From NCBI GenBank assembly GCA_963787835.1, contig CAWBEI010000004.1, forward strand, positions 1 to 64,000: a stretch of DNA of 64,000 nucleotides, written 5' to 3'. Below are positions 17,757 through 59,973 of this stretch, piece by piece. The notes beneath the pieces were generated by a model that saw nothing but the letters and a program-made list of their open reading frames with translations, was not told where the DNA came from and did no database searches. This DNA comes from Ignavibacteriota bacterium (GTDB lineage: Bacteria > Bacteroidota > Ignavibacteria > Palsa-1295). The stretch's first letter is position 1. Every line of letters starts with the position of its first letter. The translations under genes were made by a program, and so were the position numbers.

Positions 17757-17800
17757 GGAGAGGTGGCCGAGTGGCTGAAGGCAACGGTTTGCTAAACCGT
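17757..17800 (+). repeat. attL: 44-bp 5' half of tRNA-Ser(GCT) followed by degenerate 3' sequence
   Basis: GGAGAGGTGGCCGAGTGGCTGAAGGCAACGGTTTGCTAAACCGT is identical to 40328-40371; no intact T-arm or acceptor after it. Confidence 0.92.
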
Positions 17801-17845
17801 AGTACATTCAGCAAATTGCACCGCATTCGAAGGTTCTCTTTCGAA

Positions 17846-55681: not shown

Positions 55682-57601
55682 TTACTTCTTCCCATCCTCA
55701 TCGACCACCTCAAAGTCAGCATTCTCGACTTTGGGGCCGGCTTGACCATTGCCGGATGGCGGCGGCTGTGCGCCATCCGCGCCAGGGGCGGGTCCGCCCG
55801 GGGCGGACTGGTACATCTGAGTGGAGACTTCCGACCATGCGCGGTTCAGTGCTTCCACTGCGGATTTTATCGCTGCGGCGTCGGTTCCCTTGAGCGCATT
55901 TTCGAGATCGGCGATGGCGGAATTTATCTTGCCCTGGCCTTCGGGCGTCATCTTGTCTTTCAGTTCCTCGACTTGCTTCTTGGACTGGAAGACCATCTGA
56001 TCGGCCTGATTGCGGGTTTCAACCTGTTCCTTGCGCTGCGTGTCCTCAGCTTTGTGGGCCTCGGCGTCGCGCTTCATTTTGTCGATCTCTTCTTTCGAAA
56101 GTCCGCTCGATGATGTAATGCGGATCGACTGCTCCTTGTTCGTCGCTTTGTCTTTCGCACTCACGTGGAGAATTCCGTTCGCATCAATATCGAATGTTAC
56201 TTCGATCTGCGGCACTCCGCGCGGCGCAGGCGGGATTCCATCCAGATGGAACTTACCGAGGGATTTATTATCGATCGCCATCGAACGCTCGCCTTGCAGA
56301 ATGTGAATTTCTACGGATGGCTGCGAATCGCTGGCCGTCGAGAACGTCTCCGATTTGCGTGTGGGGATCGTCGTGTTCGCGGGAATCATTGGCGTCGCAA
56401 CGCTGCCCATCGTTTCGATGGAAAGCGTGAGCGGCGTTACGTCGAGCAGCAGTACGTCCGTCACTTCGCCGGTGAGTACTGCGCCCTGAATGGCCGCGCC
56501 GACCGCAACCACTTCATCAGGATTCACTCCCTTATGCGGCTCCTTGCCGAAAAGCTGACGCACGATCTCCTGCACTTTCGGAATGCGCGTCGAACCACCG
56601 ACGAGAATTACCTCATCGATGTCTGCCGGAGTAACTTTCGCATTCGCGAGCGCGCGCTTGCATGGCTCGACGGAACGCTGAAGAATATCGTTCACCAACT
56701 GCTCGAACTTCGCACGGGTGAGCGTGATGTTCATGTGCTTCGGCCCATCCGCAGTTGCAGTGATGAAGGGAAGGTTCACATCCGTCTGCATGGCAGTCGA
56801 AAGTTCCATCTTCGCTTTTTCCGCAGCTTCTTTCAGGCGCTGGAGGGCCATCGGATCTTTGCGCAAGTCGATATTTTCCGCAGACTTGAATTCATCCGCA
56901 AGAAAATCGACGAGACGCGCATCGATATTATCGCCGCCAAGGTGCGTATCGCCATCGGTGGATTTTACTTCGAACACGCCTTCGCCGAGTTCCAGAATGG
57001 AAACGTCAAACGTTCCGCCGCCAAAATCATAGACGGCGATCTTCTCGTTCTTGCCTTTTTTATCGAGGCCGTACGCAAGCGCGGCAGCCGTCGGCTCATT
57101 GATGATGCGGCGCACCGTCAGTCCCGCGATCTCGCCGGCGTCTTTTGTGGCCTGGCGCTGGGTGTCGTTGAAGTATGCGGGAACGGTAATTACGGCTTCC
57201 GTAACTTTTTGCCCGAGATAATCCTCGGCGGTCTGCTTCATTTTGGTGAGGATCATCGCCGAAATTTCGGGCGGCGAATAGATCGTACCGTTGATCTCGA
57301 CCTTCACTGCATCGCCATCGCCGCGAATGACCTTGTAGGGCACGAGCTTCATCTCCTCGTTCACTTCGCCGAACTTGCGGCCCATGAAGCGCTTGATGGA
57401 AAAAACCGTGTTCTGCGGATTCGTCACGGCCTGCCGCTTGGCAGCCTGACCGACAAGCCGCTCGCCGGACTTCGTGAATGCGACGATCGAAGGCGTCGTC
57501 CGCGACCCCTCCGAATTCGCAATGACCGTCGGCTGCGTGCCTTCCATGACGGCCACGCACGAATTTGTAGTTCCTAAATCGATTCCTATTATTTTACTCA
57601 T
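55682..57601 (-). CDS. dnaK: Chaperone DnaK
   Basis: [37 protein letters not shown]. Confidence 0.99.
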
Positions 57602-57631
57602 TGTTGTGTGTGTTGTTTGTGATTGTTAAAA

Positions 57632-58582
57632 TTAATCTTGGCGTCGTTGAATTGTGTCGATCTTTATTTCTCCTCGACGAGGAGGAGCGCTATCAGCCCA
57701 TAGCGTCCACTTAATTTTCGATTTTTCGATGTCAGGCAATGCACTTGCAGTCAGTCCGAATACTGGTGCGAACTTGATTAAGTCCTTGCGAACTACTAGG
57801 TCAAATTCCAGATGTTGCTCTGGAAACAATGACGCATACGAGTGAGCATTCGTGTTATAATTGCTCCAGCTCCAAATCCACCTTTCACCATTACTATCGA
57901 CTAACCAACACGGGCAATCAAGCTGCAACTGGATTTTTTCCGCGAGCGGTCCTCCTGAATGCTGCACCGTAACAGTAATGCGAGGTCCACCTTCGTAATT
58001 GGAAATATCTTGTCGCCCGCCATTTAAGACTTTCCGCTTACCATTATGTGAAATATTCCAAAGAGTGAAAGTAGGTTCAAGAAATGGATGCACTGACCGA
58101 TTCAAACCCATTCGAACCTCATGGTCTTCCATAACTGAAACTCGATTGCCACGTCGCGTGAAATATTTCCCAGCGTACTTTAGCGATCCACCTTCGCACA
58201 TGTGAATGGTGTTGCTTTCAGGAATCTCAACTACATACACGTAACCACTCGAAATCAAATCAACTGTTTCAATTTTGACTCCACCAATTCGACGCTGCAC
58301 TGAATCCAAAACCTGATATAACGTATCTTTGGTTGTTCCAATAGAATCAACGCTCTCAAGGTGATCTGGAATTACTCTACTTCCATCCTTTCGTTCGACC
58401 ATGCCATAGACTATCGTTCCACCGGCACTGTTCGCCATGGAGGAAACATCCTTTCTGAATTCGCTCTTCCGATTCTCTTCGGAAAAACGAAGAGACTCGG
58501 CACTTTTATATTCGTGCCGAGTGTCCTCTTCTTGCGGAAGTAAAATTAAAGCTTGCAGTCGATCTTGACTCCAATCGCTCAT
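57632..58582 (-). CDS. Schlafen/AlbA_2-domain protein
   Basis: EEDTRHEYKS (E-x4-E-x-K), KDVSSMANSAGGTIVYGMVE, YVVEIPES, YFTRRG; unknown C-terminal domain; visibly lower GC than dnaK. Confidence 0.85.
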   Translation of the reverse strand: MSDWSQDRLQALILLPQEEDTRHEYKSAESLRFSEENRKSEFRKDVSSMANSAGGTIVYGMVERKDGSRVIPDHLESVDSIGTTKDTLYQVLDSVQRRIGGVKIETVDLISSGYVYVVEIPESNTIHMCEGGSLKYAGKYFTRRGNRVSVMEDHEVRMGLNRSVHPFLEPTFTLWNISHNGKRKVLNGGRQDISNYEGGPRITVTVQHSGGPLAEKIQLQLDCPCWLVDSNGERWIWSWSNYNTNAHSYASLFPEQHLEFDLVVRKDLIKFAPVFGLTASALPDIEKSKIKWTLWADSAPPRRGEIKIDTIQRRQD

Positions 58583-58583
58583 G

Positions 58584-58859
58584 TTACTTCACCACTCCTC
58601 TCTTCTTAAGCCAGTCGAATAGTTGTTGCAAAAGGTCAAGTGGCAAATCAAAGTTTGTGCCATCCGTCTGCCCCTTTGCTCTCATCTCGTCTGTCGTAAT
58701 CGAGAGAGTAACAATGTCATCACCATAAATTCTATCTGATACAATTAACTCATCAATTGAGTCCAATGAGCCGTCCGTTCCAGGAATACTAACCTCAATA
58801 GTAATAATTGCTTGTTGTTCAGAGTAAAGTTTGAATTGTTTCTTCATAAGGTTTTTCAA
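58584..58859 (-). CDS. Small hypothetical protein
   Basis: Lies between the tRNA-like gene and the AlbA_2 gene; stop 1 nt before the next ATG. Confidence 0.55.
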   Translation of the reverse strand: MKNLMKKQFKLYSEQQAIITIEVSIPGTDGSLDSIDELIVSDRIYGDDIVTLSITTDEMRAKGQTDGTNFDLPLDLLQQLFDWLKKRGVVK

Positions 58860-58881
58860 AATAAATTTAAATTAAAACAAG

Positions 58882-58980
58882 TGGACCAGAGGAGAATCGA
58901 ACTCTTAGCCTGCTGCGTGTTAGGAGGTTCGCATGAGCCCCCTAACAGGCAGCTGCTCTAACCATTGGAGCTACTGGCCC
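58882..58980 (-). tRNA. Atypical tRNA-like gene (99 nt) with a hairpin replacing the anticodon loop
   Basis: GGGCCAG TA GCTC CAATGGTTA GAGC A GCTGC [C TGTTAGGGGG CTCATGCGAA CCTCCTAACA C] GCAGC AGGCT AAGAG TTCGATT CTCCT CTGGTCC A. Confidence 0.85.
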
Positions 58981-58984
58981 ATTT

Positions 58985-59122
58985 TTTTGCCGCCTTGCGG
59001 CGTTGTACTCGCAGCCCAGCATGATGCGAAGCGCCCGCCGCAGCGGGCTGGGCCGCGATTCTTTCCGGTGTGGGATATGCTTCAGCTTGTCCCGTTTCGA
59101 CGCAAGCTAAAGCATGGGCCAC
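58985..59122. repeat. REP-derived palindromes
   Basis: 58985-59053 shares ctgggctgcgagtac with the 48.2 kb REPtron end; 59070-59122 gtggg..atgcttcagcttg...caagctaaagcat..ccac. Confidence 0.6.
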
Positions 59123-59173
59123 ACTACTTCCTGACTTCGGCACTAACGCAGCGCACTCCATTGTTCGAATGGT

Positions 59174-59386
59174 ATGCACACCTATCATGCCGAAACCATC
59201 GTTCAGCCGGATGGCCGCGTAACCCTGCCTCATGTACCCTTTGCGAAAGGGGAAAAGGTAGAAGTCGTCGTGATTCCGTCTTCGGAAGCTGCGCAGGCTT
59301 CTGATGAGGAAGCCTGGCGACGGCTCGCGGCTGAATCGTTCTTTCGCGATTACGATGAGCGGGATTCGATTTACGATTCCTACTAA
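59174..59386 (+). CDS. Putative antitoxin
   Basis: PDGRVTLP...GEKVEV...AWRRLAAESFFRDYDERDSIYD; overlaps the toxin. Confidence 0.75.
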   Translation: MHTYHAETIVQPDGRVTLPHVPFAKGEKVEVVVIPSSEAAQASDEEAWRRLAAESFFRDYDERDSIYDSY

Positions 59387-59708
59387 ATGCAATTCGGAGA
59401 ACGTTGTCCTTCTCGATTATCCGTTCACCTATGGCGCGGGTTCGAAACGGCGTCCCGGTTTAGTCCTTCTTCCAGAAGCCGATGGGGATGTGCTTTTCTC
59501 TCGCATCACCAGCCAGTTGCGCGCAGGCGAATTCGATCTCGAACTTGAAGATTGGAAGTCTGCCGGACTTGCCTATCCATCCGTTGTTCGATTGAGCAAG
59601 ATGGTCTCACTTCATCGCGATCTTATTCTGCGCCCTATTGGCCGTTTTTCCGAGCGCGATGCATCGAACATTCGATCAATGCTTCAGCGGCTTTTAACGC
59701 GGATCTAA
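59355..59708 (+). CDS. PemK/MazF family toxin
   Basis: VVLLDYPFT..GSKRRPGLVL, ITS, WKSAGL.YPSVVRLSK. Confidence 0.88.
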   Translation: MSGIRFTIPTKCNSENVVLLDYPFTYGAGSKRRPGLVLLPEADGDVLFSRITSQLRAGEFDLELEDWKSAGLAYPSVVRLSKMVSLHRDLILRPIGRFSERDASNIRSMLQRLLTRI

Positions 59709-59973
59709 AGTTCAGAAACGCGTCTGGTTTCCCAGTGCATGATTTATGAAATGAGAGATCACATCTTTCTGAATCTCCAAAATCTCATGAAATCATGGTT
59801 CAGACATTAATAGTAAAGATTGTGCCAGTCTAAAAACGCCATAAATAAGAGGATTTCGGCATTGGCTTGCAGAACAGCATGACAGAATGTCACCTTTAGA
59901 GATAAACAATATATATCTGGGCAAATCGTCTTCAATGCGCGGGAATGATCCCAATCAACTAACCCTAAAGATT

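What the first reader, a model, noticed from the sequence alone, without database searches (positions are those of the whole stretch)
57632..58980. tRNA mimic with a sealed anticodon heading an apparent operon with a Schlafen/AlbA_2 protein
Seen: 58980-58882 (-) folds as a full cloverleaf with a 7-bp acceptor, GCUC/GAGC D-stem, GCUGC/GCAGC anticodon stem and a TTCGA T-loop. The 7-nt anticodon loop is replaced by 32 nt forming a 10-bp extension (UGUUAGGGGG/CCUCCUAACA), so no anticodon is exposed. The acceptor has G3-U70 and A73. About 20 bp downstream on the same strand come a 91-aa ORF and an AlbA_2 protein retaining E-x4-E-x-K, then dnaK. Established: G3-U70 with A73 is the AlaRS identity set, and Schlafen core domains include tRNA endonucleases. 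Inference: the RNA may be a non-decoding decoy, RNA antitoxin or sensor for the nuclease, or a precursor needing unknown processing. Removing 25 nt would give loop CUGUUAC (Asn, cut at canonical 37/38), CUGUCAC (Asp) or CUGACAC (Val).
Basis: partly seen in the sequence, partly recalled or inferred. Interest (0 to 1): 0.85.

Follow-up and report, generated by a model that had tools for sequence, protein, structure and literature searches.

The report
Anticodon-sealed tRNA look-alike in defence cassette
A bacterium carries a tRNA-shaped gene whose codon-reading loop is replaced by a long hairpin, sitting at the front of a likely imported anti-phage cassette; similar look-alikes are common in phages, and this one is likely a non-decoding RNA-processing element, not a dedicated partner of the neighbouring Schlafen nuclease.

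Summary
Positions 58980-58882 (-) hold an intact tRNA body (Rfam tRNA 48 bits; fold z -3.8) with G3·U70/A73. A 32-nt insert forming 10 further base pairs replaces the anticodon loop.

It begins at the edge of a variable slot upstream of dnaK. Relatives fill that slot with other defence-type genes and no tRNA. No close homologue was found.

It fits a broad class: viral scans gave 123 clusters of tRNA bodies with lengthened anticodon arms. This scan has already noted that class in phages on other DNA.

G3·U70 is not enriched in the class (56 clusters, against 67 with G3-C70). Splicing is unlikely: no 25-nt excision gives an Ala anticodon, and no RtcB or EndA was found.

A Schlafen partnership is not supported. 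No such RNA lies beside 82 loci of this Schlafen subfamily or 46 other Schlafen loci in the family. The protein's predicted architecture resembles the self-contained pSlfn5.

One lead remains: other chromosomal members head HEPN or RNA-ligase/Hen1 runs. Best reading: an imported, non-decoding RNase P/CCA substrate that punctuates the cassette transcript. Expression is untested.

The parts
58882..58980 (-). 99-nt tRNA-shaped gene: 7-bp acceptor with G3·U70 and A73, 4-bp D stem, 5-bp anticodon stem, 5-nt variable loop, T arm with one mismatch, no encoded CCA
58917..58948 (-). 32 nt in place of the 7-nt anticodon loop: C·C mismatch, 10-bp extension (58947-58938 with 58927-58918) and a 10-nt distal loop (58937-58928)
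   Evidence: 32 of 200,000 shuffles reach such a stem
58860..58881 (-). A/U-rich 3' trailer between the RNA and the small ORF; candidate site of 3' processing (inferred)
   Evidence: sequence
58584..58859 (-). orphan ORF, 91 aa from TTG or 87 aa from ATG at 58847; function unknown
   Evidence: no Pfam match; only itself found; Atlas hits under 0.9 and recognition below threshold
57632..58582 (-). Schlafen/AlbA_2 protein, 316 aa, with Ex4ExK motif and a predicted all-beta C-terminal domain (pSlfn5-like architecture, inferred)
58979..59111 (-). GC-rich hairpin region shared with 5 of 9 genus relatives; marks the upstream edge of the variable cargo slot
59174..59708 (+). MazF/PemK-type toxin gene with a small upstream partner ORF, antisense to the cassette; not found at this place in the 9 relatives fetched
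59806..59827 (-). promoter-like motif whose core is also present in 4 of 9 relatives; candidate promoter for slot cargo and dnaK (inferred)
   Evidence: not called by the sigma-70 scan
55682..57601 (-). dnaK, the conserved downstream anchor of the slot

Best explanation
This is an intact tRNA-shaped gene with a hairpin in place of the anticodon loop, likely imported with the orphan ORF and the Schlafen gene into a defence-cargo slot upstream of dnaK, and likely acting as a non-decoding RNA-processing element, not as a partner of the nuclease. Predicted steps: the slot is transcribed toward dnaK. RNase P would cut at G1, and 3' trimming plus CCA addition would release a stable 99-nt RNA and give the downstream mRNA a new 5' end. 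AlaRS could charge it through G3·U70/A73. The arm is about 11 bp too long for the ribosomal decoding site, so it would not read codons. The Schlafen protein likely works on its own through its C-terminal sensor domain. Shown: structure, position, variable slot, class membership by shape, lack of linkage in the loci searched. Inferred: import, expression, processing, charging and function.
For: The body is intact at both ends, unlike decayed tRNA copies in relatives, which lose their 3' halves. The cassette has lower GC (0.40-0.47, against 0.51-0.60 in dnaK). In relatives the slot holds TIR, DUF2971/PDC-S31, DUF559 or NOV_C genes and no tRNA. No close relative was found in 60 related genomes, the phage and plasmid collections, or viral and metagenome patterns. 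The same design occurs in 123 viral clusters with unrelated inserts. C74 follows A73 in 53 of 56 and 55 of 67 clusters, as in processed tRNA genes. The D arm with its extra C matches intact tRNA-Ala genes of tRNA arrays. There was no link to Schlafen in 82 + 46 loci. pSlfn5 is switched by a phage protein through its Ig-like domain (PMC13056530, passages).
Against: No expression or processing data exist for this RNA. There is no close homologue, so selection on this copy cannot be shown and it may be an inert passenger. The T stem has a mismatch and a low pairing probability. A fully sealed extension of 8 bp or more is rare in the class (3 of 75), and 2 of those 3 excise to a cognate Ala anticodon. 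Chromosomal members found in relatives tend to head RNA-acting genes: HEPN in G020, RNA ligase and Hen1 in G337, exonucleases in G445 and G011. That hints at a tighter role. The class was collected with patterns and pairing filters, so it may pool several unrelated things.
Confidence: 0.47

Rival explanations
1. Inert relic: a foreign Ile2- or Ala-type tRNA gene was inactivated once by a hairpin insertion and rides along in the cassette with no function.
For: It is a single copy with no homologue. It has an A50·C64 mismatch. The distal loop resembles the CAU loop plus 3 nt, and the 5' half best matches CAU tRNAs. Palindromes do break tRNA copies in this lineage (G000 C5:66909).
Against: All 7 acceptor, 4 D and 5 anticodon-stem pairs are kept although the gene is far from any host tRNA. 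The insert matches no repeat in the genome. Decayed copies in relatives sit next to their parent gene and lose the 3' half.
Confidence: 0.22
2. Dedicated or semi-dedicated partner of RNA-damage systems: a cleavage-resistant tRNA decoy or regulator that binds the Schlafen RNase and restrains it until infection.
For: It is the first element of the run holding the Schlafen gene. In G020 a look-alike ends 3 nt before a HEPN gene just downstream of dnaK. G337 and G445 each have two tandem look-alikes heading runs with RNA ligase/Hen1 or an exonuclease. [quoted passage not shown]
Against: 0 of 82 subfamily loci and 0 of 46 family Schlafen loci carry one. No Schlafen, HEPN or RtcB appears among 117 ORFs near 41 viral members. 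No Ro60 or RtcB was found in G000. The locus of the closest Schlafen (P0003, 41-46% identical) could not be fetched. The chromosomal cases are few and were not compared with a background rate.
Confidence: 0.17
3. Intron-bearing tRNA: 25 nt are spliced out to give a decoding tRNA, most consistently Val(GAC) at junction 34/35, which would mistranslate Val as Ala if G3·U70 dominates.
For: C32-U33 and A37 are in place. A minority of viral members (15 of 75 with Y32-U33 and R37) excise to canonical loops, and several share a 34/35 junction with a fitting acceptor. The G020 element also gives GAC at 34/35. Lak phage tRNA introns are published (PMC6784885).
Against: None of the 8 excision registers gives an Ala anticodon or an intron ending in G. 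There is no bulge-helix-bulge. RtcB, EndA and the RNA_ligase family were not found in G000, which is 98% complete. The host already has Val, Asn and Asp tRNAs. The body matches Val, Asn and Asp tRNAs poorly.
Confidence: 0.08
4. Replacement for the missing tRNA-Cys, or an integration-site remnant.
For: No tRNA-Cys was found in G000. The element lies at the boundary of a variable cassette.
Against: In 2 of the 3 relatives compared, the DNA beside tRNA-Cys runs off the end of G000 contig C6, so it is likely an assembly gap. The element has A73, and no 7-nt GCA loop can be excised. No integrase was recognised among the neighbours scanned, and relatives have no tRNA at the slot.
Confidence: 0.02

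Closest known systems
'Enigmatic' tRNA introns of Lak megaphages (Devoto et al. 2019, PMC6784885; passages read, supplements not read)
   Same: Full tRNA body with an unexplained insert in the anticodon loop and no known splicing route.
   Different: Those are phage genes with cognate excision products and some insert-free alleles. This one is chromosomal cargo, has no insert-free allele, and its Ala-type acceptor fits none of its excision anticodons.
YrlA-type bacterial Y RNAs (Chen et al. 2014, PMC4201824; passages read)
   Same: Non-decoding tRNA mimics with D and T arms; one is cut by RNase P and gains CCA.
   Different: YrlA RNAs are encoded next to Ro60, and the stem-loop between their T and D arms takes the acceptor position. 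Here the topology is canonical, no Ro60 was found, and no Y RNA family matched.
tmRNA tRNA-like domain (features recalled, not from a call)
   Same: G3·U70/A73 acceptor, and a long helix in place of the anticodon arm.
   Different: This RNA has a full D stem, no tag reading frame and only 99 nt. G000 has a separate tmRNA.
pSlfn5, Schlafen fused to an Ig-like sensor (PMC13056530; passages read)
   Same: N-terminal Schlafen domain with Ex4ExK and a predicted beta-rich C-terminal domain.
   Different: Orthology to RorSlfn5 was not tested. The Ig-like call rests on weak fold hits. No RNA partner appears in the passages read.

Membership tests
canonical decoding tRNA | 7-bp acceptor, D arm and T arm with invariant bases | tested here: met
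   one T-stem mismatch and an extra C in the D loop, the latter also seen in intact array tRNAs
canonical decoding tRNA | 5-bp stem closed by a 7-nt anticodon loop | tested here: not met
   32 nt with a 10-bp extension; missed by ARAGORN without the intron option
alanine-accepting RNA | G3·U70 with G1-C72 and A73 | tested here: met
   sequence; G3·U70 as the main determinant per PMC9976931 (passages)
alanine-accepting RNA | actual alanylation after CCA addition | not testable with these tools
   needs an in vitro charging assay
BHB-intron tRNA (archaeal type) | bulge-helix-bulge at the junctions and an EndA endonuclease | tested here: not met
   continuous helix; PF01974 not found in G000
group I intron tRNA | catalytic core of hundreds of nt and a terminal G (features recalled) | tested here: not met
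   25-nt insert; none of 8 registers ends in G; no Rfam intron match
Lak-type phage tRNA intron | excision restores a tRNA whose anticodon fits its acceptor; insert-free alleles exist | tested here: not met
   products are Val, Asp or Asn with an Ala-type acceptor; no insert-free allele found
YrlA Y RNA | adjacent Ro60 gene and permuted tRNA-like domain | tested here: not met
tmRNA | tag ORF, pseudoknots, no D stem | tested here: not met
RNA antitoxin (type III-like) for the Schlafen | conserved linkage of the RNA to the toxin gene | tested here: not met
RNA antitoxin (type III-like) for the Schlafen | binding to and neutralising the nuclease | not testable with these tools
   needs a bench assay
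prokaryotic Schlafen RNase | SLFN_AlbA_2 domain with Ex4(E/D)xK | tested here: met
   motif per PMC13056530
pSlfn5 | C-terminal Ig-like beta-sandwich sensor | tested here: inconclusive
   strand-rich model with low-confidence stretches; weak Ig-domain hits, E about 2e-3 to 1e-2

The most novel reading that the evidence does not exclude
Anticodon-sealed tRNA bodies are modular RNA partners of bacterial RNA-damage and RNA-repair cassettes. They would be uncleavable, possibly alanylated tRNA decoys that hold tRNA-cutting nucleases (Schlafen here, HEPN in G020) in check or feed repair ligases (G337), making a new kind of RNA regulator in anti-phage defence.
Probability: 0.15. Interest if true: 0.85.

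Novelty: new variant of a known kind. Interest (0 to 1): 0.42.

Why it matters
Standard tRNA finders skip these genes, and Rfam files them as ordinary tRNAs. The class looks large: 123 viral clusters from only two narrow patterns. Its function is open, and I found no paper describing it as a class in the searches run. This copy lies in a chromosomal cassette small enough to clone whole, so it allows a direct test of whether such RNAs are processed, charged, spliced, or affect a tRNA-cutting defence nuclease. If the decoy reading held, it would add an RNA-level control to Schlafen and HEPN defence.

Tried and rejected
Homologue searches. BLAST of the element over 60 related genomes gave only partial matches; those inspected (6) were ordinary tRNAs or had none called. 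The exact-arm viral pattern gave 0 hits. The Asn-hairpin viral pattern returned 120 loci that I did not analyse. The metagenome pattern gave 9 loci; all hold an ordinary tRNA that explains the match. Phage and plasmid BLAST gave only tRNA-Trp D-arm matches and one Vibrio phage match.

Model R1 over 141 genomes was swamped by ordinary tRNAs and told nothing. The covariation on alignment A2 is circular, because rows were selected for pairing, so I do not use it as evidence. R1 missed the ordinary tRNA-Gln in L478, so its sensitivity is limited for other D arms. The A1 profile is too narrow to detect general Schlafen domains.

No RNA holder was listed, which is no evidence on expression. The PF09511 search rang in no control and is uninformative. 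PADLOC had no model for the Schlafen or the small ORF. The wide fold search for the C-terminal domain did not run.

Rejected ideas: attC site (core motifs in the wrong order; motif recalled), insert as a genomic repeat, substitute for tRNA-Cys, G3·U70 as a class hallmark, and tRNA-likes as a regular feature of dnaK flanks (0 in 29 further stretches).

Full report
Observation. The element at 58980-58882 (-) is real. Rfam scores it as a tRNA over the whole model, 48.1 bits. It folds at -45.6 kcal/mol, z -3.83, and 0 of 200 shuffles do as well. ARAGORN finds it only when introns are allowed, as Asn with 25 nt removed. The acceptor, anticodon stem and 10-bp extension pair with probability near 1. 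The D stem is near 0.5, and the T stem, which has an A50·C64 mismatch, is 0.15 or less in the canonical register. A 10-bp continuous extension arose in 32 of 200,000 shuffles. Contigs from two public DNA runs span it without differences, so it is not an assembly error, though they may be the source sample.

Host context. G000 (3.57 Mb, 7 contigs, 98% complete) has ordinary tRNAs for Asn, Asp, Val (three) and Ala (three), and a tmRNA. tRNA-Cys is missing. In two of three relatives compared, its neighbourhood runs off the end of G000 contig C6, and in the third the matching DNA stops 59 nt short of that end, so this is likely an assembly gap. RtcB, EndA, Ro60 and the RNA_ligase family were not found.

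The slot. I fetched 8 kb upstream of dnaK from 9 genus relatives. Five share a GC-rich stretch ending at window 58979-58985 or just upstream, and the sequence then diverges until dnaK. The RNA starts at that edge. The relatives' cargo differs and is defence-like: TIR-type proteins in three, DUF2971/PDC-S31, DUF559 and NOV_C. None has a tRNA there, and 20 further dnaK flanks have none. The cassette is lower in GC than dnaK. I infer that the RNA, the orphan ORF and the Schlafen gene arrived together. A promoter-like motif at 59827-59806 has a counterpart in 4 of the 9 relatives, and no terminator was called on this strand before dnaK. Co-transcription is inferred.

Ancestry. Among the ARAGORN calls in my loci and the genome (420 calls before filtering), the body scores best against Ile2/Met (CAU) and Ala genes and poorly against Val, Asn and Asp. 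The extra C in the D loop also occurs in intact tRNA-Ala genes of tRNA arrays, so it is not decay. The distal loop reads like a CAU loop with three added bases. One relative-derived element has an Ala-type loop at the tip of a lengthened stem (L598:4901-4992). Stem lengthening is therefore as plausible an origin as intron insertion.

The class. A viral pattern for tRNA bodies with G3·U70 and 42-70 nt between the D and T arms gave 120 loci, 76 distinct strings, 59 passing pairing filters and 56 clusters. The largest group, near-identical copies in about 40 contigs, failed the T-stem filter and was dropped. The G3-C70 control gave 120 of about 150 loci, 92 strings, 77 passing and 68 clusters, 67 after removing one tandem tRNA. 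So G3·U70 is not enriched. Inserts are unrelated to each other. The closest insert to ours scores 0.69 against a shuffled maximum of 0.65, and its alignment is unconvincing. Of 75 clusters with a proximal 5-bp stem, 15 keep Y32-U33 and R37. Several of these excise at 34/35 to an anticodon that fits the acceptor, and they look like true intron-bearing tRNAs. Ours keeps those bases but gives only Val, Asp or Asn loops on an Ala-type acceptor. Earlier notes of this scan describe the same kind of RNA in phages (24 findings). These are unchecked AI notes, used only as leads.

The Schlafen link. The 316-aa protein keeps E19-x4-E24-x-K26, and its model matches SAMD9 and SLFN RNase domains. Its strand-rich C-terminal half gives weak Ig-domain hits. 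That recalls pSlfn5, which is triggered by a phage protein through its Ig-like domain and cuts tRNA between nucleotides 30 and 31 (PMC13056530, passages). I tested linkage from both sides. Around 82 loci of this subfamily (the best 80 of 500 confirmed, plus 2; flanks up to 2.5 kb), model R1 found the three positive controls, which are in its training set, and one ordinary tRNA-Arg. A script found one ordinary tRNA-Gln. Around 46 of the 47 other Schlafen matches in 35 family genomes there was no extended RNA, only a degenerate 74-nt tRNA-like sequence and two weak 12-bit matches. Among 117 ORFs, the up to three longest same-strand frames near each of 41 viral members, there was no Schlafen, HEPN or RtcB. 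The closest Schlafen, P0003, had no match other than G000 in 331 genomes, and its DNA could not be fetched.

Evidence the other way. Pattern searches of 301 class and 401 phylum genomes, which overlap, gave six other genomes with intact extended bodies. In G020 one lies 430 nt downstream of dnaK and ends 3 nt before a HEPN gene. G337 has two in tandem heading a run with a T4-type RNA ligase and Hen1. G445 has two heading a run with an exonuclease and a 14-tRNA array. G011 has one in a prophage-like stretch with an exonuclease downstream. G379 has two among tRNAs on a short contig. G278 looks like an archaeal-type intron tRNA-Phe (my reading). The sample is small, has no background rate, and none of these is homologous to our insert, but it keeps the RNA-damage reading alive.

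Mechanism. The most likely course is transcription of the slot toward dnaK and RNase P cleavage at G1; a 7-bp acceptor is named as a major determinant in PMC4201824. Then come 3' trimming in the A/U-rich trailer, CCA addition, and perhaps alanylation, since G3·U70 is the main Ala determinant (PMC9976931, passages). The arm is about 11 bp too long to decode. The products would be a stable non-decoding RNA and a freshly ended mRNA for the orphan ORF, Schlafen and dnaK. All of these steps are inferred, and no RNA run was available. I put this at 0.47, an inert relic at 0.22, a decoy or regulator at 0.17, a spliced tRNA at 0.08 and other readings below that.

Literature. Nine searches ran; for most papers I saw only the listing. 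I read passages of PMC13056530, PMC6784885, PMC4201824, PMC6514570, PMC7824862 and PMC9976931, and no supplements. None of these passages describes a tRNA body with a sealed anticodon beside a Schlafen gene. The library lacks most subscription journals.

Verdict. This is a real and unusual RNA gene, a chromosomal variant of a poorly understood phage-type class. The pairing with Schlafen that made it exciting is not supported by the comparative tests. Interest 0.42.

Noticed in passing
L317:3993-4088 (-) (G020): 96-nt tRNA-like gene with an extended anticodon arm, 430 nt downstream of dnaK and 3 nt before a HEPN-domain ORF; 34/35 excision would give Val(GAC).
   Followed up: partly
L596:7885-8306 (-) and L597:8640-8940 (-): Two tandem extended tRNA-like RNAs in each genome, heading an RNA ligase/Hen1 run (G337) or an exonuclease plus a 14-tRNA array (G445).
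   Followed up: partly
L072, L103, L327, L363, L364, L380, L406, L416: Viral tRNA genes with 16-40-nt structured inserts whose removal at junction 34/35 restores a canonical loop fitting the acceptor; candidate spliced phage tRNA introns with a shared site.
   Followed up: partly
L598:4901-4992 (-): Extended tRNA body with a UGC-containing Ala-like loop displaced to the tip of a lengthened stem.
   Followed up: no
L316:4031-4129 (+) (G011): 99-nt extended tRNA-like gene with C73 and encoded CCA in a prophage-like stretch.
   Followed up: partly
window 57620-59830 and L037-L045: Genus-wide variable defence-cargo slot between a conserved promoter-like/hairpin region and dnaK, so that changing cargo precedes the chaperone gene.
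   Followed up: partly
window 17757-17842 (+): Truncated copy of the 5' part of tRNA-Ser(GCT), scoring 28.9 bits.
   Followed up: no
G000 C5:66909-66984 and C2:351995-352072: A second initiator-tRNA copy whose D arm is replaced by a GC palindrome found 34 times in the genome (both strands counted), and an atypical tRNA called Glu(TTC).
   Followed up: no
L318, L319: Several degenerate tRNA-like segments upstream of an RtcB plus VWA-domain operon, one sharing the extra-C D arm.
   Followed up: partly
G000 contig C6 start: tRNA-Cys is absent from the assembly; its neighbourhood in relatives maps to this contig end.
   Followed up: yes
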